From Patescibacteria group bacterium (GTDB taxonomy: Bacteria > Patescibacteriota > Patescibacteriia > Patescibacteriales > JAQTRU01), in assembly GCA_028711415.1 (NCBI GenBank), contig JAQTSG010000001.1, positions 1 to 55,872 of the forward strand: DNA of 55,872 bases, read 5' to 3'. Shown here piece by piece: positions 17,250-26,058 of the stretch (the stretch's first letter is position 1; every line of letters starts with the position of its first letter). Both the position numbers and the translations under genes were made by a program. The notes below the pieces were generated by a model. That model did not search any database. It was given only the letters and a program-made list of their open reading frames with translations, and was not told the origin of the DNA.

Positions 17250-17284
17250 TTAGCAATATGAATTATTTGTTATAGATTCGTTTT

Positions 17285-17380
17285 ATTACAAATCTACAAA
17301 TTATTTCACAAATTCACAAATACCGAGTAGATTCTTTTTGCTAGAATTTGTATATTTGTAATAGATTTGTAATTTGTAAT
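17285..17380. repeat. AT-rich heptamer-word inverted repeat (TTTGTAA word)
   Basis: ATTACAAATCTACAAATTATTTCACAAATTCACAAATA ... AATTTGTATATTTGTAATAGATTTGTAATTTGTAAT. Confidence 0.85.
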
Positions 17381-17382
17381 CA

Positions 17383-17568
17383 TTGTGGATATCTGATGTT
17401 GACTTAAAAAATTTTGTTTGTTAAGATATGATTGATTCTGGAAGAAATCGTATAAATTAAATAAAAACAGTTTTTTGTTTCCTTGTCATACCTCTTAGCC
17501 GGATTATGTCCGGAATAACTAGGGGGTTAATTTTTGTTTTTAAGAAAAATATTTTTTTGTGGGTGGGG
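17383..17568 (+). repeat. Direct repeat copy 1 (atp promoter + leader)
   Basis: Near-identical to 17987-18175, offset 604 bp. Confidence 0.9.
17399..17427 (+). promoter_or_regulatory. Promoter TTGACT-17-TAAGAT (atp P1)
   Basis: Direct read inside repeat copy 1. Confidence 0.65.
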
Positions 17569-17701
17569 GGATGGTTATAAAGCATTAACCCCGTCAGAAA
17601 TTTCTTAATTAGTTAGCTAGAAAAAATAATAAAATAATTAATTCTATAATTCTCGATTTTTTAAAAATAATCGAAAATTAAGAATTGAAAATTAATTTAA
17701 T

Positions 17702-17929
17702 ATGGACGCAGAAACTTTGAGACATTTATCCGCCGCGGTTGCCATCGGTCTCGGTGCCATCGGCCCCGGTATCGGAGAAGGTAATGTGGCTAGCCGGGCC
17801 TTAGAAGCTATTGGTCGCAATCCGGAAGCGGCTAGTAAAATTACGCCCGTGACATTCATTACTATGGCTATTATTGAATCGGTTGCTATTTATGCCTTAG
17901 TCGTTGCTTTGATTATTCTTTTTTCTTAG
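17702..17929 (+). CDS. atpE: F0F1 ATP synthase subunit c, paralogue 1
   Basis: 75 aa hairpin protein; GRNPEA loop, ion-binding Glu in AIIESVAIY. Confidence 0.9.
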   Translation: MDAETLRHLSAAVAIGLGAIGPGIGEGNVASRALEAIGRNPEAASKITPVTFITMAIIESVAIYALVVALIILFS

Positions 17930-17986
17930 AAGATAGAGTTATAAAGGGATTTTTGGCCGGTAAAATATCCGTAGTTTGTAGCCCAG

Positions 17987-18175
17987 TTGTGGATATCTGA
18001 TGTTGACTTAAAAAATTTTGTTTGTTAAGATATGATTGATTCTGGAAGAAATCGTATAAATTAAATAAAAACAGTTTTTTGTTTCCTTGTCATACCTCTT
18101 AGCCGGATTATGTCCGGGATAATTAGGGGGTTAATTTTTGTTTTTAAAAAAAAGAAATATTTTTTGTGGGTGGGG
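17987..18175 (+). repeat. Direct repeat copy 2 (atp promoter + leader)
   Basis: Near-identical to 17383-17568. Confidence 0.9.
18003..18031 (+). promoter_or_regulatory. Promoter TTGACT-17-TAAGAT (atp P2)
   Basis: Direct read inside repeat copy 2. Confidence 0.65.
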
Positions 18176-18208
18176 TATAGTATAAATTGTAAGGCGGAGA
18201 GAAAGAAT

Positions 18209-18526
18209 ATGAAAGAAGATTTTTTAGACAAATATAAAAATATAAGGCAATTATCCTGGGCTCTGGCTTTTTATAGCAGCACCTCTATTTTTGGTCCCCT
18301 TTTGATAATCGGCGGAGCCGGCTGGTATCTGGACAGGGTTCTTGGCACTCGCCCCTGGCTTTTAGCTATAAGTATTTTTATCGCCTTTATCGTTACGAAT
18401 ATTTTACTTTTTAAAAAAGTGGTTGCTTTGACTAGATGGATCAGTCGCCAGAAAGAATTAAGGAAGAAAGATGAGGCGGGCAAAACGGTTGGGCTAGGAG
18501 AAGAAAATGCTAAAGATATTTTTTAG
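18209..18526 (+). CDS. AtpZ/AtpI family protein
   Basis: IIGGAGWYLDRVLGTRPW motif, two TM helices; ATG 18209 preceded by GGAGAG; the upstream part of the ORF lies in the duplicated leader. Confidence 0.7.
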   Translation: MKEDFLDKYKNIRQLSWALAFYSSTSIFGPLLIIGGAGWYLDRVLGTRPWLLAISIFIAFIVTNILLFKKVVALTRWISRQKELRKKDEAGKTVGLGEENAKDIF

Positions 18527-18534
18527 TTAAACAT

Positions 18535-19293
18535 ATGGAATTAAGCGTAAGTTTAGCACCGGACATTTTATTTTTTATCGGCGGTTTTCCCGTAACCAAT
18601 ACTTTTTTTTGGTCTCTATTCATCAGTTTATTTTTGATTATTCTCATCCTTTTTGTCCGGTCCAGGTTAAAATTAATCCCAGGGGGGTTGCAGAATATTG
18701 TTGAGCTTCTTTTGGAGGGCGGTTATTCTTTTGTTAAATCCATTGCCGGCACGGAAAAGAAAGCGAAGCGGCTTTTCCCTTTGGTTTTTACCATGTTTGT
18801 TTTTATTTTAGTGGCTAATTTAGCTACTTATATTCCCGGCCAATCCGCCGTAACTTTGCATAAAGAAGAAGGAGTGGTTTCGGTTTTTCGGGCGGTGATA
18901 GCCGATTATGGCATGGTGTTTGTCATGACCCTCATTACCTTTTTGATTACGCAGATTGTTATGATAGCAGCTAACGGTCCTTTCGGCTATTTAGGCAAGT
19001 TTATTAATTTTAAAGGCCCCATGCAATTTTTTCTAGGGCTGATGGACTTAGTCGGAGAGTTGGCAAAAGTAATTTCTTTGTCCTTCCGTTTATTTGGCAA
19101 TATTTTCGCCGGGGAGATTTTAGGGGCGGTAATGCTGTTTTTGGCTCCATTTTTTGTCCCTTTGCCCTTTATGTTTTTGGGGCTGGTGACGGCTGTCGTC
19201 CAGGCTTTCGTTTTTGCCGTTTTAACTTTAGTATTTATAACTATGGCTTCGGAAATTCCGGAAAGTGAGGTAAGCAAAAGTGAGCCAGTTTAA
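18535..19293 (+). CDS. atpB: F0F1 ATP synthase subunit a
   Basis: SLSFRLFGNIFAGE motif with the essential Arg. Confidence 0.9.
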   Translation: MELSVSLAPDILFFIGGFPVTNTFFWSLFISLFLIILILFVRSRLKLIPGGLQNIVELLLEGGYSFVKSIAGTEKKAKRLFPLVFTMFVFILVANLATYIPGQSAVTLHKEEGVVSVFRAVIADYGMVFVMTLITFLITQIVMIAANGPFGYLGKFINFKGPMQFFLGLMDLVGELAKVISLSFRLFGNIFAGEILGAVMLFLAPFFVPLPFMFLGLVTAVVQAFVFAVLTLVFITMASEIPESEVSKSEPV

Positions 19294-19310
19294 AAAATTT
19301 TAAAATAATA

Positions 19311-19357
19311 TCCGCCAGAGGCGGACCCGCAATATAAAAATTTATGTGGCGGGAAAT
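19311..19357 (+). repeat. CACCGC-hairpin element, copy c (variant)
   Basis: TCCGCCAGAGGCGGACCCGC-N16-GTGGCGGGAAAT. Confidence 0.7.
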
Positions 19358-19372
19358 AATAAATTAAATTTT

Positions 19373-19600
19373 ATGGAAACAGAAGCTATAAAAGCCCTTG
19401 CCGCCGGTATTGCCATGGGATTTGGGGCTATCGGTCCGGCTGTGGGAGAAGGTTATGTGGCGGGTAGAGCCCTGGAAGCCATTGGTCGCAACCCGGAGGC
19501 GGCTGACAAAATTACACCTCTGATGTTCGTAACTATGGCTATTTGCGAATCTACCGGTATTTATTCCCTGGTAATCGCCCTGATTGTCATTTTTGGTTAG
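19373..19600 (+). CDS. atpE: F0F1 ATP synthase subunit c, paralogue 2
   Basis: 75 aa from ATG 19373; GRNPEA loop; AICESTGIYSLVIAL. Confidence 0.9.
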   Translation: METEAIKALAAGIAMGFGAIGPAVGEGYVAGRALEAIGRNPEAADKITPLMFVTMAICESTGIYSLVIALIVIFG

Positions 19601-19666: not shown

Positions 19667-20161
19667 ATGAAGCTATTAGAAGCTTTAGGCCTGGATTTAA
19701 GAATTTTGATTGCCCAATTAATTAATTTCGCGATCTTGGTTTTGGTTTTGTGGAAATTCGGCTATAAGCCGATCCTAAAATTTTTGAATGACCGCAAGGA
19801 AAAAATAGAAAAAGGCGTGGAAGATGCCAGACGGGCTTCGGAAAAACTGGAGGAAATGGAGCAGAGAGAAGCCGAGCTGGTCAAAGCGGCAAAAAAGGAA
19901 GCAGCCAAGATTTTAGAAGAAGCCAAAAAACAGGGCGAAATTAACCGCCAGAAAACTGTTGACAAGGCCAAGGAAGAAATCGGCCAGATTATTAATCAGG
20001 AAAAAGCTAAAATGGAAGCGGAAAAAGGGGAAACTTTAAGAGAGATAAAAAGGGAAGTGGGTGATTTGATTGTTTCTTCTTTGGAGAAGATTTTAGGGGA
20101 AAAGATGACTGACAAGAAAGACGAAGAGCTTATAAAAAAAATTGTAAAGAATTTAAAATAA
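19667..20161 (+). CDS. atpF: F0F1 ATP synthase subunit b
   Basis: N-terminal TM, then a long charged helix; position in operon; 19640 is an alternative start. Confidence 0.85.
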   Translation: MKLLEALGLDLRILIAQLINFAILVLVLWKFGYKPILKFLNDRKEKIEKGVEDARRASEKLEEMEQREAELVKAAKKEAAKILEEAKKQGEINRQKTVDKAKEEIGQIINQEKAKMEAEKGETLREIKREVGDLIVSSLEKILGEKMTDKKDEELIKKIVKNLK

Positions 20162-20166
20162 TATGA

Positions 20167-20196
20167 ACCCCGTTAGAAATCAATTTCTAACGGGGT
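20167..20196. repeat. Perfect 14-bp-arm palindrome ACCCCGTTAGAAAT / ATTTCTAACGGGGT
   Basis: Direct read between atpF and atpH; a third half-site lies at 20212-20225. Confidence 0.9.
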
Positions 20197-20225
20197 AAGC
20201 AGATAATAATTAAATTTCTAACGGG

Positions 20226-20627
20226 ATGAAAATTACCGCTAAACAATACGCCAAGGCCTTGTTTGAATCAGTAAGCGCCGCCCCTAGCGACAAAGTTGGG
20301 GAAGTGGTGAAGAATTTTTGCCGGGCGCTTAAGGCTAATAACCAAACCTCCCAACTCGGGAAAATTATCGGGCAATTTGAGCAGATTTGGGATAAAAAAA
20401 ATAATATAGTCAAGGCGGAAATTATAAGCGCTTTAAAACTAAACTCGGAAACGGAAAAAATTATTGAGCAGTATCTAAAAAAAACCGTCGGGGCTAAAGA
20501 AATAGAATTAAGCCGGAAGGTTGATAAAAACATCTTGGGTGGGGTAATTATTAAATATGGAGATAGAATTTTAGACGAGAGCCTAAGGACGAGATTAGCC
20601 GAATTTTCACAGACGTTAAAGGGATAA
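20226..20627 (+). CDS. atpH: F0F1 ATP synthase subunit delta (short form)
   Basis: ITAKQYAKALFE start, operon position, 133 aa. Confidence 0.7.
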   Translation: MKITAKQYAKALFESVSAAPSDKVGEVVKNFCRALKANNQTSQLGKIIGQFEQIWDKKNNIVKAEIISALKLNSETEKIIEQYLKKTVGAKEIELSRKVDKNILGGVIIKYGDRILDESLRTRLAEFSQTLKG

Positions 20628-20831
20628 CAGCGGGATTCTTGGGATTTTTAAGATTCTTAGGACTCTTTTGGAAAATACTTTTAACTTCATCTATATGAAC
20701 CCCGTTAGAAATTTGGCTGGGAATAATAATAAGATTTCTAACAAGGTGAACGCCATTATAAATTTGAGTAGCCAGAAAAAATGAATAATTTTTAGCAAGA
20801 AGAAGATATTTAAAAATAATTAAAATATTAT

Positions 20832-22409
20832 ATGGAAAAAGAAAACAAAAAAATTTCTAACGGGGTGAACAATACTAAAGACTTTATTGTTGAGCAAATA
20901 AAAGAGCAGATAAGCGGATTTAAAGCGGAGGCGGAAGAAAAAACTTTCGGCCAGGTAACTGAAGTCGGCGACGGCATTGCCCGGGTTTCCGGCCTGTCCG
21001 ACGCTATGATGTCGGAAATGCTTGAATTTAAAACAGCCAGCGGGCCGGCTTATGGCGTAGTCCTTAACCTGGAAGAAGACAGCGTGGGCGCTATTATTTT
21101 GGGCGACGCTTCTTCAATTAAGGAAGGCGACGAGGTAATCGCTTTAAAGAGGATTTTGGAGGTTCCGGTCGGGGATGAACTGGTCGGCCGGGTAGTTAAT
21201 CCCCTAGGGAAGGCTTTAGACGGAAAAGGGGATTTAAAGACGAAAAAGTCCTATCCGATTGAAAAAATCGCTCCCGGAGTAATCGCCCGCGAATCAGTCA
21301 ACCAGCCGGTCCAGACCGGGATTAAGGCCGTTGATGCCATGATTCCAATCGGTCGGGGCCAAAGAGAACTGATAATCGGCGACCGCCAGATTGGTAAAAC
21401 CGCGATTGCCATTGACGCGATTATCAACCAGAAGGGTCAGCATATGAAATGCATTTACGTGGCGATCGGGCAGAAAGAGTCAAAAGTCGCTTCTATCGTA
21501 GCGCGCCTGGAGAAATTCGGCGCCATGAAATACACGACCGTGGTGATGGCCGGCGCTTCTGATCCGGCTCCGCTTCTTTATATCGCCCCTTACGCCGGTT
21601 GCGCTATGGCTGAATATTTTTTGGACAAAGGCGAAGATGTCTTAATAATTTATGATGATTTGTCAAAACACGCGGTGTCTTACCGCGAGGTTTCTTTGTT
21701 ACTTCGCCGGCCGCCGGGACGCGAAGCTTTTCCGGGAGACGTTTTTTATCTCCATTCCCGTTTGTTGGAAAGGGCTTGCAAATTAAATAAAGATTACGGC
21801 GGCGGCTCCATTACGGCTTTACCTTTAATTGAAACTCAGGCCGGAGACGTTTCCGCTTATATTCCAACCAATGTCATTTCCATAACTGACGGCCAAATTT
21901 ATCTGGAATCAGACCTTTTTTACAAAGGCAACCGCCCGGCTATAAATGCCGGTTTGTCCGTTTCCCGCGTCGGTAACAAAGCGCAAATCAAGGCTATGAA
22001 AAAAGTCGCTGGCCGGATGCGGTTAGAGGCGGCCCAATACAGGGAACTTGAAGCTTTTGCCCAGTTCGGCTCGGATCTAGACAAAGAAACGAAAGAAAAA
22101 CTGGAAAGGGGCCGGCGTATGATTGAAGTCTTAAAGCAGGACCAATACGTGCCGATGCCGGTAGGTCAGCAGGTAGTTATTTTCTTTGCTTTGATTTCCG
22201 GATTTTTAGATAATGTGCCGGTAGAAAAGGTCAAAGATTTTGAAGCTGGTCTCCTGGAGTATGTCCAGGACGTGAATTCTGATTTAGTAAAAGAAATAGA
22301 AAAAACCGGAGAATTAACTGAAAGCGAAGAAAAAAAGCTGGAAAAAACTATTAAAGATTATAAAGATACGCTGGATTATTTAGAGAGTGATAAAGTTAAA
22401 AGTTCATAA
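20832..22409 (+). CDS. atpA: F0F1 ATP synthase subunit alpha
   Basis: GDRQIGKT Walker A, ~15-aa N-terminal extension containing a repeat half-site. Confidence 0.95.
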
Positions 22410-22464
22410 AGTTATAAAGTTAAATACTTTAAGACTTTTTACTTTTAACTTTATAAACTAAGAG

Positions 22465-23439
22465 ATGGCTAAGACAAAAGAAATCCAAAGAAGAATAAAA
22501 TCCATAGGCAACACGAAAAAAATTACGCGGGCTATGGAAATGGTGGCGGCTTCAAAGATGAAAAAGGCGGTGGAGTCGGTTTTGCGCACCCGGACTTATG
22601 CTAATTTAAGCTGGACTACGATTTTAAATCTTTCCGCCGCGGTTGATTCCGGCAGAAATCTTCATCCGCTTCTTTCGGCCAGGAAAGAAATAAAAAAAGT
22701 GGGAATAATTTTATTTTCTTCAAACCGCGGCCTTTGTGGCGGGTTTAACGCCGCGATTGTCAATAAAGCGGTTGATTCAGCAAAAAAGCACGAGAAAAAC
22801 GAGAAGGGAGATAAAATAGAAAATGAATTTATTATAGTCGGGAAAAAAGGCCGGTCGGTTTATTCCCGTTTTGGCTATAAAATCTCGGCGGCTTTTGAAA
22901 AGCAGGATACTTGCACCGAGGTTAGGGAAGTAAGCTCACTGGCTCGTTTAATAATTGATGATTTTTTAGCCGGCAAATGCGATAAAATAATGGTGGCTTA
23001 TTCGGACTTCGTGAGCGCTACCCGGCAAGTGCCCCGGGTTAAGCAGCTTCTTCCTATAGACATATCGGCTCATGAAGAGTTTTTGGGCGTAGTCGGGGAA
23101 GATAGCCGGGTTGGGGCGGATAGGCAATATCTTAAAGGCAAAGAAGATAAATATTTACATGATGAGAAAAAAAATAAATATATTTTTACCTATGAGCCAG
23201 GTCCGGAAGAAGTTTTAAATGAGATGCTGCCTAGAGTTTTGGAAATCCAGCTTTTTCAGGCTTTGTTGGAGTCCAACGCTTCCGAGCACAGCGCCCGCAT
23301 GGCGGCTATGCATCAGGCCACGGACGCGGCCGGGGATTTAGTTGATGAGCTTACCTTATTTTACAATAAAGCCAGGCAGGCCGCGATTACCTCGGAGATA
23401 GCGGAAATATCGGCGGGAGCAAATGCGTTGAAAGGTTAA
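22465..23439 (+). CDS. atpG: F0F1 ATP synthase subunit gamma
   Basis: IKSIGNTKKITRAMEMVAASKM start, C-terminal ITSEIAEISAGANAL. Confidence 0.9.
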   Translation: MAKTKEIQRRIKSIGNTKKITRAMEMVAASKMKKAVESVLRTRTYANLSWTTILNLSAAVDSGRNLHPLLSARKEIKKVGIILFSSNRGLCGGFNAAIVNKAVDSAKKHEKNEKGDKIENEFIIVGKKGRSVYSRFGYKISAAFEKQDTCTEVREVSSLARLIIDDFLAGKCDKIMVAYSDFVSATRQVPRVKQLLPIDISAHEEFLGVVGEDSRVGADRQYLKGKEDKYLHDEKKNKYIFTYEPGPEEVLNEMLPRVLEIQLFQALLESNASEHSARMAAMHQATDAAGDLVDELTLFYNKARQAAITSEIAEISAGANALKG

Positions 23440-23572
23440 AATAAAAAATAATAAAATAAAAAAATAATATAAAAATTAAAATAATTTAAGTATTCTTCCT
23501 GACTTTAGTCAGAGTTAAGAAGATGAATTAAAACATTTTAACTCCCACTAAATTGGGGTAGAAATAGAGAAT

Positions 23573-23606
23573 AAAAAAAGCCACCCCTGAAGTTGATTGG
23601 GGTGGC
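23573..23606 (-). terminator. Intrinsic terminator of the antisense orphan gene
   Basis: On the minus strand GCCACCCC-N11-GGGGTGGC followed by T7. Confidence 0.75.
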
Positions 23607-23639
23607 GCGAATGAAGGAAGCGGAGAGTTGTTTATTCAC

Positions 23640-23933
23640 TTAAAATGAATGAAGCTCTGCCTGATGGATTTTTTCCGGATATTTCTCGGCCTCTGCGGGG
23701 AGGTTAATATCAGCAAATCCGAGGATTTCCGCGGCTCGTTGAAAAGTACGAAGGATGTTTGCGTCAATGCGCGCTCGGTCGAAGTGAATTACCCCTGGGT
23801 TTCCCATGGTTGTTTCTATAAACCAGCAGATAAGAGCATCTCTTCGATTTTTTTCTTCCGATTTCCGGATAATTTTCACAATATCATCAACAATTTTGAT
23901 GAACTTTGGGTCTTCAAATTGGTTACCCGACAT
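23640..23933 (-). CDS. Orphan 97-aa protein encoded antisense inside the atp operon
   Basis: ATG 23933 preceded by AAGGAGAG 9 nt upstream; own promoter and terminator; no family recognised. Confidence 0.6.
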   Translation of the reverse strand: MSGNQFEDPKFIKIVDDIVKIIRKSEEKNRRDALICWFIETTMGNPGVIHFDRARIDANILRTFQRAAEILGFADINLPAEAEKYPEKIHQAELHSF

Positions 23934-24013
23934 GGTGGCACTCTCCTTTTCTAAGAAATGAACAAAGATATTATTGTTATCATGAATAAAAAATAGTTTA
24001 TTATTAATAAGAA

Positions 24014-24042
24014 AATATATCATAAGATTAATAATTTGTCAA
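24014..24042 (-). promoter_or_regulatory. Promoter TTGACA-17-TATATT on the minus strand
   Basis: Reverse complement of 24014-24042. Confidence 0.6.
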
Positions 24043-24062
24043 TTCTTAAAAATTAAAGATAA

Positions 24063-25517
<1,455 letters not shown>

Positions 25518-25525
25518 TTAGTCAA

Positions 25526-25610
25526 CTAGTTAAAAGTTTGTAAAGTTTATAAAGTTGAAAGTCCTCCTATTCGGACTTTATAACTTTTAACTTTATGACT
25601 TTATAACTAG
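25526..25610. repeat. AT-rich heptamer-word inverted repeat (AAGTTAT/ATAACTT word)
   Basis: CTAGTTAAAAGTTTGTAAAGTTTATAAAGTTGAAAGTCC ... GGACTTTATAACTTTTAACTTTATGACTTTATAACTAG. Confidence 0.85.
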
Positions 25611-25620
25611 CTGTTGAACT

Positions 25621-26058
25621 ATGTTTGAAAGCGATAAGACAATTAAATTTGAAGTGGTAACGCCGGAAAGGGTGGTTTTAAAAGAAAATATTCATCAGGT
25701 GACGGTACCGACTCGGTCCGGGGAAATCACGGTCCTGCCTAACCATACGCCCTTAATCTCGATTTTAAAGCCGGGCGTAATTGAGTTAAAGAAAGAAAAC
25801 GGCGAAGTGGAAATCATGTCTGTCTCCGGCGGGTTTATTGAGGTCTTAAAAAATAAGGTGGTAATTTTAGCGGATACGGCCGAACGAGCCGAGGAGCTTG
25901 ACTTGAAGAGAGCCGAGGAAGCGAGAATAAGAGCGGAGAAGATAAAAGAGGAAACCAGACATGAAGACGCGGAAAGCTTTGCCGCGATTACCGCTCAACT
26001 GGAGAAGGAATTAGCCAGAACCAAGGCGGTGAGGAGATGGAAGAATTTAAAAAGATAA
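25621..26058 (+). CDS. atpC: F0F1 ATP synthase subunit epsilon
   Basis: FEVVTPERVV start, C-terminal helical hairpin, operon position. Confidence 0.85.
   Translation: MFESDKTIKFEVVTPERVVLKENIHQVTVPTRSGEITVLPNHTPLISILKPGVIELKKENGEVEIMSVSGGFIEVLKNKVVILADTAERAEELDLKRAEEARIRAEKIKEETRHEDAESFAAITAQLEKELARTKAVRRWKNLKR

What the first reader, a model, noticed from the sequence alone, without database searches (positions are those of the whole stretch)
17383..19600. Tandem duplication of the atp promoter/leader creates a second, separately driven c-subunit gene
Segments 17383-17568 and 17987-18175 are near-identical direct repeats (offset 604 bp, only a few mismatches or indels). Each carries a TTGACT-17-TAAGAT promoter plus ~150 nt of leader. 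Copy 1 is followed only by atpE-1 (17702-17929). Copy 2 is followed by atpZ-atpB-atpE-2-atpF-H-A-G...D-C. The two 75-aa c subunits are clearly diverged paralogues, while the promoter/leader copies are almost identical. This suggests homogenisation of, or selection on, the leader rather than a recent whole-unit copy. Possible roles are a mixed or switchable c-ring, or boosting subunit c from its own transcription unit.
Basis: partly seen in the sequence, partly recalled or inferred. Interest (0 to 1): 0.6.

Follow-up and report, generated by a model that had tools for sequence, protein, structure and literature searches.

The report
Extra rotor-subunit gene behind copied atp promoter
A tiny uncultured (Patescibacteria) bacterium carries a second, diverged gene for the ATP synthase rotor subunit c just upstream of its ATP synthase operon, and a recent copy-paste event gave it the operon's own promoter; this is a tidy case of a known kind of gene duplication, not a new system.

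Summary
A 188-nt direct repeat (17383-17570 and 17987-18175, offset 604) is 98% identical over its aligned columns, and its first 131 nt are identical. It occurs only twice in the 1.1-Mb genome. Each copy has a conserved TTGACT-17-TAAGAT promoter with a TG extension and a terminator-like hairpin. Copy 1 drives only atpE1. Copy 2 drives atpZ-atpB-atpE2-atpF-H-A-G-D-C.

atpE2 is the orthologue of the single c gene of sister species. atpE1 is old (58% of synonymous sites differ from atpE2) but functional: a sister organism's contig (L032) has the same atpE1-leader-atpZ-atpB layout, with dN/dS 0.17. In L032 the two leaders are diverged and a fragment of atpZ lies before atpE1. So atpE1 is the relic of a partial duplication, or acquisition, of leader-atpZ-atpB-atpE.

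c2 has the full two-carboxylate Na+ motif. c1 has Val in place of the water-holding Thr and resembles H+-type rings more. A mixed or alternative rotor is plausible but untested.

Duplicated c and Fo genes are already known in other bacteria.

The parts
17383..17570 (+). Promoter/leader copy 1. Against orthologous leaders the homology runs on to about 17583.
   Evidence: Direct repeat. 85% identical to the single leader of G001 and 84% to leader 2 of L032.
17399..17427 (+). Promoter 1: TTGACT, 17 nt, TAAGAT, with TG before the -10 hexamer. The inferred transcription start is near 17434.
   Evidence: Scan. Both hexamers and the TTGTGGATATCTG box upstream are conserved in G001, G002, G003, L032 and L118, and partly in G004.
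17490..17541 (+). Terminator-like hairpin (17490-17527) followed by a T-rich run, inside leader 1.
   Evidence: Local fold -18.5 kcal/mol, z -2.07. Across 7 leaders 86.7% of cells pair and 2 pairs change on both sides. The consensus terminator scan did not flag it.
17622..17701 (+). Relic of the atpB-atpE intergenic spacer. It now serves as the AU-rich translation initiation region of atpE1, and no Shine-Dalgarno sequence is visible.
   Evidence: blastn homology to the atpB-atpE spacers of G003 and G004 starts 75-80 nt before the start codon. In L032 the same 19-nt hairpin lies before atpE1 and after atpB.
17702..17929 (+). atpE1: extra c subunit, 75 aa. Its ion site reads E26, E59, S60, V61, Y64, so Val replaces the Thr67 of the Na+ motif.
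   Evidence: PF00137 at 64 bits. 87% identical orthologue in L032 with dN/dS 0.17. Best single-hairpin match among solved structures is 2wie at 63 bits, against 48 bits for 3zk1.
17930..17986 (+). Spacer. The first ~9 nt are homologous to the start of the atpE-atpF spacer. The last ~30 nt are a diverged copy of the heptamer-rich flank that precedes the leader in relatives.
   Evidence: blastn and alignments. No terminator was found here.
17987..18175 (+). Promoter/leader copy 2, the resident operon leader. Promoter at 18003-18031 and hairpin at 18094-18131.
   Evidence: It is the positional orthologue of the single leader of G001, G002, G003 and L118.
18209..18526 (+). atpZ (AtpI-like small membrane protein).
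   Evidence: PF09527 at 27.2 bits, just over the cut-off. Orthologues in all relatives.
18535..19293 (+). atpB (subunit a).
   Evidence: PF00119, E 9e-38.
19373..19600 (+). atpE2: resident c subunit, 75 aa. It has the full two-carboxylate Na+ motif: E26, E59, S60, T61, Y64.
   Evidence: PF00137 at 65 bits. 89% identical to the single c of G001. Best single-hairpin match among solved structures is 3zk1, the Fusobacterium nucleatum c-ring, at 63 bits.
19667..26058 (+). Rest of the operon: atpF 19667-20161, atpH 20226-20627, atpA 20832-22409, atpG 22465-23439, atpD 24135-25517, atpC 25621-26058. An unrelated minus-strand ORF lies at 23640-24023.
   Evidence: ORF list. Pfam matches for F, H, G and C.

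Best explanation
The region is a real tandem structure: [promoter/leader 1 - atpE1] followed by [promoter/leader 2 - atpZ-atpB-atpE2-atpF-H-A-G-D-C].

Shown:
- atpE2 is the resident orthologue.
- atpE1 is an older paralogue that is also present in a sister organism (L032) and is under purifying selection.
- atpE1 is still flanked by the atpB-atpE spacer upstream and by the start of the atpE-atpF spacer downstream.
- L032 keeps a stop-containing atpZ fragment behind its first leader.

Inferred history: a copy of leader-atpZ-atpB-atpE was placed upstream of the operon. This happened either by tandem duplication or by recombination with DNA of a related lineage. An internal deletion then removed atpZ-atpB, and the remaining c gene diverged at its ion-binding site. 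Later, in this genome's lineage only, non-reciprocal recombination (gene conversion) overwrote leader 1 with the resident leader 2. This produced about 190 nt of near-identity with a sharp 5' boundary at 17383.

Inferred consequence: atpE1 is now transcribed from the same extended -10 promoter, through the same terminator-like leader hairpin, as the operon. c1 is therefore made together with c2 and the rest of the enzyme, and promoter 1 probably also reads through into the operon.

Inferred function: c1 is a working c subunit whose site lacks the water-holding Thr (Val here, Ile in L032). This predicts weaker Na+ preference than c2. c1 would either mix with c2 in one ring or form its own rings on the same stator, and so tune the coupling ion rather than merely raise c dosage.
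For: Repeat and uniqueness. Promoters: with conservation across relatives.

Orthology of c2: 89% amino-acid identity to the only c gene of G001, in the same operon position.

One leader and one c gene were found in G001, G002, G003, G004, in L118, and in four independent G001-type contigs.

L032 has atpE1-like (87% aa), then promoter/leader, then atpZ-atpB.

Selection and age:
- atpE1, G000 versus L032: dN 0.069, dS 0.41.
- atpB, same pair: dN 0.074, dS 0.54.
- atpE1 versus atpE2: pS 0.58, dN 0.24.
- Leaders: 98% identity within G000 against 83-87% between orthologues.

L032 leader 1 matches the G000-type leaders only over ~30-45 nt around the G-run/T-run. It is 84% identical to the leader of L124 and 76% to that of G004.

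The atpZ fragment L032:150-249 is 70% identical to atpZ and translates with one stop. Spacer homologies.

Ion sites: c2 aligns without gaps to 3zk1 with E, E-S-T, Y. c1 scores higher against the H+-type Spirulina c15 (2wie, 63 bits) than against 3zk1 (48 bits). In the F. nucleatum ring Thr67 holds the water that is the fifth Na+ ligand, and selectivity depends on the polar make-up of the site (PMC3692424).
Against: - No reads could be laid on the repeat, and 131 identical bases are longer than typical assembly k-mers.
- There are no transcription or protein data, so promoter use, read-through and c1 incorporation are all inferred.
- Only two genomes carry atpE1, so the direction of leader replacement rests on one comparison. 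Leader 1 may have been replaced in L032 as well as, or instead of, in G000.
- The origin of atpE1 is unresolved. The tree puts the c1 clade outside the native family clade, AU tests do not reject an in-lineage origin (p 0.31 and 0.21), and synonymous distances are lowest to genus members.
- The Thr-to-Val argument for ion preference is by analogy with solved rings, not a measurement.
Confidence: 0.7

Rival explanations
1. Assembly artefact: the metagenome assembler joined two strains or species at shared leader sequence, and no real genome has two leaders flanking atpE1.
For: The genome is a 68-contig MAG. The identical block of 131 nt exceeds common k-mer sizes. No read check was possible. 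Two Logan contigs of one sample (L032, L124) both break at the same promoter k-mer, which shows that this sequence confuses assemblers.
Against: All four repeat junctions are unique sequence. The only alternative path through them is a 604-bp circle. L032, from a different sample and assembler, independently shows atpE1 directly upstream of a promoter/leader-atpZ-atpB. atpE1 and atpB show similar synonymous divergence between G000 and L032, as expected for linked genes. Only two copies are present in the genome.
Confidence: 0.05
2. Recent whole-unit copy: leader plus c gene were duplicated together recently, and atpE1 then diverged very fast under positive selection. No conversion is needed.
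For: The leaders are nearly identical. The c1 clade sits on a long stem in the tree (0.24).
Against: 58% of synonymous sites differ between atpE1 and atpE2, more than between orthologues of sister species (31-40%). atpE1 predates the G000-L032 split, whereas the leader identity (98%) postdates it, because orthologous leaders are 83-87% identical. L032 has diverged leaders.
Confidence: 0.04
3. Xenologous origin: the atpE1 unit was not duplicated in place. It came by lateral transfer and homologous recombination from a neighbouring genus (L124/G004-like). Only afterwards was its leader converted in G000.
For: L032 leader 1 is 84% identical to the leader of L124, an organism from the same sample, and 76% to G004. 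It matches its own genus type only in the G-run/T-run. The atpZ fragment reads LGKY as in G004 and L124, not LDKY as in the G000/G001/L032 group. The c1 clade is a weak sister (84/81) of the L124 c subunit and lies outside the native family clade. c1 keeps ancestral residues (MDAET, GPGIGEG) that c2 and G001 have changed.
Against: Synonymous differences of atpE1 are lowest to genus members G001 and G002 (0.46-0.57) and near saturation to L124 and G004 (0.65-0.73). AU tests do not reject an in-family or in-lineage origin (p 0.31, 0.21). The alignment has only 75 columns. L032 leader 1 could itself be a later replacement.
Confidence: 0.35
4. Dosage only: atpE1 simply adds c-subunit supply for a many-membered ring, and its sequence differences are neutral.
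For: c is needed in 8-17 or more copies per enzyme. atpE1 shares promoter, leader and an AU-rich initiation region with the operon. In Acetobacterium woodii two of the three c genes encode the same protein (my own knowledge; 4bem appears).
Against: c1 differs from c2 at 26-27 of 75 residues. The differences include site residues that are shared by both c1 orthologues and by none of the native family sequences: N28, I58, V/I61. dN/dS 0.17 shows that this particular sequence is conserved. Sister species manage with one c gene.
Confidence: 0.2
5. atpE1 is a decaying relic with no function. The copied leader is an accident that will be lost.
For: It is missing in most relatives. Its neighbour atpZ is a pseudogene fragment in L032.
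Against: The 75-codon frame is intact in two lineages, with dN/dS 0.17, the same as atpB. All core c features are kept: the glycine motif, the RNP loop and the helix-2 Glu. The promoter is intact.
Confidence: 0.06

Closest known systems
Acetobacterium woodii Na+ F1Fo ATP synthase with several c genes (atpE1, atpE2, atpE3) and a hetero-oligomeric c-ring (PDB 4bem)
   Same: More than one c-subunit gene serves a single F-type operon in an anaerobe with a Na+-type site. 4bem chains are the top matches among solved structures for both c1 and c2. It is the precedent that different c proteins can share one ring.
   Different: In A. woodii the odd subunit is a fused double hairpin (182 aa) that lacks one carboxylate, and the genes lie side by side inside the operon. 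Here both proteins are 75-aa single hairpins that each keep both Glu residues. The extra gene lies upstream of atpZ behind its own copy of the promoter. Ring composition is unknown.
Two-carboxylate Na+ c-ring of Fusobacterium nucleatum (3zk1; PMC3692424)
   Same: c2 has Glu at the Gln32 position plus E-S-T-x-x-Y, and it aligns without gaps. c1 keeps both Glu, Ser and Tyr.
   Different: c1 has Val (Ile in L032) instead of Thr67, the residue that holds the Na+-coordinating water. Overall it scores higher against H+-type rings.
Catalogued duplications of F0 genes in bacteria (Koumandou and Kossida 2014, PMC4154653): species-specific c duplication in Alkaliphilus metalliredigens, and an ectopic full F0 set in Desulfococcus oleovorans
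   Same: Extra copies of c, or of a-c-b, beside one F1, with an origin (duplication or transfer) that is often unclear.
   Different: Those cases were not described with a duplicated, homogenised promoter/leader or with a remodelled ion site. None is from Patescibacteria.
Concerted evolution by gene conversion between bacterial paralogous segments (for example tufA/tufB and rRNA operons; my own knowledge)
   Same: Copies within the genome are more alike than orthologues are (98% against 83-87%). The tract boundary is sharp and the flanks are diverged.
   Different: Here the converted tract is a non-coding promoter/leader of about 190 nt, while the adjacent coding paralogues stay 70% identical.
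N-ATPase (laterally transferred Na+ F-type operon; PMC2881411)
   Same: A second, Na+-related set of rotor genes in one genome.
   Different: The N-ATPase is a complete separate operon with its own F1 and the atpQ/atpR genes. Here only a c gene is extra, so this is not a member.

Membership tests
F-type ATP synthase subunit c (PF00137) | Profile match over the curated cut-off | tested here: met
   c1 scores 64 bits and c2 65.1 bits against a cut-off of 24.
F-type ATP synthase subunit c (PF00137) | Single helical hairpin with a glycine-rich helix 1, a polar R-N-P loop and an ion-binding carboxylate in helix 2 | tested here: met
   The c1 sequence reads GLGAIGPGIGEG ... GRNPEA ... IIESVAIY. It aligns end to end with solved c subunits.
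F-type ATP synthase subunit c (PF00137) | Assembly into the rotor ring of an F1Fo complex | not testable with these tools
   This needs membrane proteomics or native MS. The gene lies beside the only atp operon in the genome.
Na+-binding c subunit, two-carboxylate type (F. nucleatum) | Glu at position 32, then Glu65, Ser66, Thr67 and Tyr70 (F. nucleatum numbering) | tested here: met
   This row is for c2. All five residues are present in a gap-free alignment to 3zk1. The motif is defined in PMC3692424.
Na+-binding c subunit, two-carboxylate type (F. nucleatum) | Thr67, which holds the Na+-coordinating water | tested here: not met
   This row is for c1. It has Val61 at this position, and the L032 orthologue has Ile. 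c1 is therefore not filed as a full member.
Na+-binding c subunit, two-carboxylate type (F. nucleatum) | Na+-dependent activity, or Na+ protection from DCCD | not testable with these tools
   This is a biochemical assay.
Hetero-oligomeric F-type c-ring (A. woodii type) | A fused double-hairpin c subunit that lacks one carboxylate, alongside single-hairpin c subunits | tested here: not met
   Both c1 and c2 are 75-aa single hairpins with the helix-2 Glu.
Hetero-oligomeric F-type c-ring (A. woodii type) | Two or more different c proteins in one ring | not testable with these tools
   No protein data are available.
Gene conversion / concerted evolution of a duplicated segment | Paralogous copies within a genome are more similar than orthologous copies between sister genomes | tested here: met
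   98% within G000 against 83-87% to G001 and L032 leader 2. The positional counterpart in L032 (leader 1) is unalignable except for ~30-45 nt.
Gene conversion / concerted evolution of a duplicated segment | Flanking paralogous sequence is much more diverged, with an abrupt tract boundary | tested here: met
   The ~40 nt upstream of both copies align at roughly 60-70% with indels, then identity jumps to 100% at 17383/17987. atpE1 and atpE2 have pS 0.58.
Known cis-regulatory RNA (riboswitch or leader families of Rfam) | Match to a curated covariance model | tested here: not met
   No Rfam hit lies in 17383-18208 at E up to 1. The whole-leader fold is no better than shuffles, with z 0.05 and 0.40.
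Intrinsic terminator / attenuator in a 5' leader | G+C-containing stem-loop directly followed by a U-run, conserved in relatives | tested here: inconclusive
   The hairpin plus T-run is present in both copies and in relatives. 86.7% of cells pair, 6 of 500 shuffles reach this, and only 2 pairs change on both sides. The consensus scan does not flag it. Termination itself is untested.
N-ATPase | A separate complete operon with its own beta-epsilon-first order, atpQ/atpR, and no delta | tested here: not met
   The genome has only one atp operon, with canonical order and a delta subunit, and only c is extra.

The most novel reading that the evidence does not exclude
c1 and c2 are made together from identical promoters and co-assemble into one F-type ring built of two different single-hairpin subunits. 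One has a full Na+ site and the other a more H+-leaning site. This would give a promiscuous or tunable Na+/H+ rotor. It would be the minimal form of a wider habit in this Patescibacteria order of carrying alternative membrane (Fo) parts for a single F1. G018 and G188 carry complete tandem H+-type and Na+-type Fo modules.
Probability: 0.2. Interest if true: 0.7.

Novelty: new variant of a known kind. Interest (0 to 1): 0.42.

Why it matters
Extra c-subunit genes are rare in F-type ATP synthases. The one well-studied case, A. woodii, changed how rotor stoichiometry and ion coupling are understood. Here a reduced-genome, probably fermentative bacterium keeps a second c subunit under purifying selection, with the Na+-site Thr replaced. 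That is worth a biochemical look at coupling-ion choice in CPR bacteria, whose energy metabolism is largely unknown.

The locus is also a clean natural example of gene conversion acting on a promoter/leader and thereby rewiring the regulation of a paralogue. A sister genome preserves the state in which the two leaders differ.

It is not a new kind of system, and nothing here has been shown experimentally.

Tried and rejected
- **Rfam:** nothing in the leaders at E up to 1, so I dropped a known riboswitch, including the Na+ and Li+ classes I had in mind.
- **Whole-leader structure:** the fold is no better than shuffles. Only the local hairpin stands out, and its covariation support is weak.
- **TTGTGGATATCTG box upstream of -35:** it is not a genome-wide motif. 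There are 21 hits with up to 2 mismatches against 15 for the control pattern, and only the two leaders match exactly.
- **More atpE1-type genes:**
  - The 5.8-billion-protein search gave one relative above 80% identity, P0002.
  - The metagenome scan gave nothing above 64%.
  - Exact look-ups of c2 and atpZ found nothing.
  - Close atpB relatives all had a single leader.
- **Origin of atpE1:** the tree, AU tests and synonymous distances disagree or are inconclusive.
- **Small leader ORF:** an ORF (TTG, then MFL[KR]K..IFFCGWG) follows the hairpin. Indels between copies are multiples of three, but its start codon is lost in G003 (read by eye). I did not adopt it.
- **Mobile promoter cassette:** rejected, because the genome holds only two copies.
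Full report
**1. Observation**

The window comes from a 1.095-Mb, 68-contig genome with 97% of marker genes. Database names for close homologues place it in Patescibacteria.

- The repeat finder reports a 188-nt direct repeat, 17383-17570 and 17987-18174, with start-to-start spacing 604.
- A gapped alignment gives 98% identity over aligned columns. Bases 1-131 are identical. The three substitutions and two short indels (in A/T runs) all fall in the last 57 nt.
- The element occurs exactly twice in the genome, with E 9e-95 and 6e-84.
- Each copy holds TTGACT-17-TAAGAT preceded by TG.
- Pfam confirms the genes: atpE1 17702-17929, atpZ 18209-18526, atpB 18535-19293, atpE2 19373-19600, then atpF, atpH, atpA, atpG, atpD and atpC.

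**2. Which c gene is the resident one**

Three other species of the same genus (G001-G003) and one of a sister genus (G004) each have one leader and one c gene, in the order leader-atpZ-atpB-atpE. Four independent G001-type contigs from other samples, and a further relative (L118), show the same arrangement.

c2 is 89% identical to the G001 protein. c1 is only 64-74% identical to any of them. So atpE2 is the orthologue and atpE1 is the extra gene. The leader is the native atp leader of the genus:

| Comparison with the G000 leader copies | Identity |
|---|---|
| G001 | 85-87% |
| G003 | 80-84% |
| G004 | promoter and hairpin/T-run still recognisable |

**3. An independent second case**

The only close relative of c1 among 5.8 billion proteins is P0002, at 87% identity. 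It lies on a 2065-bp contig (L032) from another sample and assembler. That contig reads leader-like sequence, atpE1-like gene, promoter/leader, atpZ, atpB.

L032, G000 and G001 form a tight trio, with atpB 86-88% identical in DNA.

| Gene, G000 vs L032 | dN | dS |
|---|---|---|
| atpE1 | 0.069 | 0.41 |
| atpB | 0.074 | 0.54 |

The ratio for atpE1 is 0.17. The extra gene has therefore been inherited with the operon since these lineages split and is under purifying selection. This also argues strongly against an assembly artefact.

**4. How the unit arose**

- In G000, the 80 nt before atpE1 (17622-17701) are homologous to the atpB-atpE spacer of relatives. About 9 nt after its stop codon are homologous to the atpE-atpF spacer.
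- In L032, a 19-nt hairpin is identical before atpE1 and after atpB.
- In L032, positions 150-249, right behind the first leader, are 70% identical to atpZ codons 6-39. They translate with one internal stop.

The unit is therefore what remains of a copy of leader-atpZ-atpB-atpE after deletion of most of atpZ and all of atpB.

**5. Why the leaders are identical here**

atpE1 and atpE2 differ at 58% of synonymous sites, more than orthologues of the trio (31-40%). Orthologous leaders of the trio differ by 13-17%. A leader pair as old as the c pair should therefore be at least that diverged, yet it differs by 2%.

In L032 the two leaders share only about 30-45 nt around the G-run and T-run. Upstream of both G000 copies, roughly 40 nt still align but only at about 60-70% with indels. 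Identity then jumps to 100% at 17383/17987. Copies within the genome that are more alike than orthologues, with a sharp boundary and old flanks, are the signature of gene conversion. Both G000 copies are of the resident genus type, so leader 2 was the donor.

Selection alone would not produce 131 identical bases.

**6. Where atpE1 came from is open**

Evidence for an outside origin:
- L032 leader 1 is 84% identical to the leader of L124. L124 is an organism of a neighbouring lineage from the same sample, and its c subunit (P0010) sits in a normal operon. L032 leader 1 is also 76% identical to that of G004.
- The atpZ fragment has the LGKY signature of those lineages.
- In a 64-sequence tree the c1 pair (99/97) lies outside the native family clade, as a weak sister (84/81) of P0010.

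Evidence against:
- Synonymous differences are lowest to genus members (0.46-0.57) and 0.65-0.73 to L124 and G004.
- AU tests do not reject an in-family origin (p 0.31) or an in-lineage origin (p 0.21).

I put lateral acquisition at about one third and an old in-genus duplication with losses at about two thirds of the remainder. The data, with 75 columns, cannot decide.

**7. The leader**

There is no Rfam match, and the leader as a whole folds no better than shuffles. One local element stands out. It is a bulged hairpin (17490-17527 and 18094-18131; -18.5 and -16.4 kcal/mol) whose 3' arm is an invariant G-run, followed by a T-run and then an A-run.

Across seven leaders 86.7% of cells pair, and two pairs change on both sides. 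The controls are only modestly exceeded. It looks like an intrinsic terminator or attenuator between promoter and first gene, conserved at family level, but this is not proven.

No terminator was found after atpE1. Promoter 1 therefore probably also reads into the operon.

**8. The proteins**

c2 aligns without gaps to the F. nucleatum ring (3zk1, 63 bits) and carries Glu at the Gln32 position plus E-S-T-x-x-Y. This is the two-carboxylate Na+ motif of PMC3692424.

c1 keeps both Glu residues, Ser and Tyr, but has Val (Ile in L032) instead of the Thr that holds the Na+-coordinating water. It also has Ile for Cys/Ala next to the Glu, and Asn two residues after the first Glu. All these changes are shared by the two c1 orthologues and by none of the native sequences. 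c1 scores 63 bits against the H+-type Spirulina c15 ring and 48 against 3zk1.

The cited paper explains that selectivity depends on the polar make-up of the site, and that two-carboxylate sites occur in both Na+ and H+ enzymes. From this I infer a weaker Na+ preference for c1. This is an inference, not a result.

Because both genes now share promoter and leader, co-expression (a mixed ring, or two ring populations) is more likely in this genome than a transcriptional switch. A pure dosage role is less likely given the conserved, specific substitutions.

**9. Context and novelty**

Among 201 genomes of the order, 184 have PF00137 matches. Eleven have more than one match. Some of these are fused double-hairpin subunits.

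Two genomes from different families, G018 and G188, have complete tandem Fo modules of H+ type and Na+ type in front of one F1. An extra lone c gene behind a duplicated promoter was seen only in G000 and L032.

Duplicated c genes and duplicated F0 sets have been catalogued in other phyla (PMC4154653), and A. woodii has a hetero-oligomeric ring (4bem). This is therefore a new variant of a known kind. It is of moderate interest, mainly as a lead for coupling-ion biochemistry in CPR bacteria and as a clear example of promoter conversion.

My alignments agree with it.

Noticed in passing
L113 (G018:C11:15500-22000, minus strand) and L127 (G188:C39:10000-17500, minus strand): Two genomes of other families in the same order carry complete tandem Fo modules in front of a single F1. 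G018 reads tatD, atpZ'-atpB'-atpE'(H+ type, AEAIAIY, no helix-1 Glu)-atpF', then atpZ-atpB-atpE(Na+ type, E...ESTAIY)-atpF-atpH. G188 has the Na+-type module first, then atpB'-atpE'(H+ type)-atpF'-atpH. This could mean alternative membrane motors for one catalytic head. I found no description of it.
   Followed up: partly
window 20226-20627: The delta subunit (atpH) is only 133 aa and matches only positions 62-172 of the OSCP profile, so the N-terminal domain is missing. A 2026 preprint (10.64898/2026.10.01.756066) links short delta subunits in CPR bacteria with predicted large c-rings.
   Followed up: no
window 23640-24023 (minus strand): An ORF on the opposite strand lies between atpG and atpD and has no Pfam match.
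   Followed up: no
L114 1427-1984 and L120-L122 (G001-type contigs): In the G001 lineage the gap between tatD and the atp leader holds a 185-aa membrane-protein-like ORF with no Pfam family recorded in the contig listing, instead of atpE1. L118 has a ~200-nt insert between leader and atpZ, and G002 has a ~120-nt hairpin insert inside the leader. The tatD-atp gap looks like a hotspot for insertions.
   Followed up: no
window 17284-17363 and 17955-17986: A heptamer-rich inverted repeat (ACAAAT-type words) precedes leader 1, as it does the single leader of L118 and G003. A diverged ~30-nt piece of it precedes leader 2, so it was part of the original duplicated unit.
   Followed up: partly
window 17533-17610 and 18137-18185: A short ORF starts at a TTG 7 nt after the G-run of the hairpin (MFL[KR]K..IFFCGWG...). 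Length differences among G000 copy 1, copy 2, G001, L032 and L118 are multiples of three, but the start is TTA in G003. It could be a leader peptide or mere nucleotide conservation of the T/A runs.
   Followed up: partly
L032:1-30 and L124:1-30: Two Logan contigs from the same run (SRR22388067), from two different organisms, begin at the same ~30-nt -10/start region of the atp promoter. The assembler evidently breaks at this conserved sequence, which limits what short contigs can show upstream of it.
   Followed up: no
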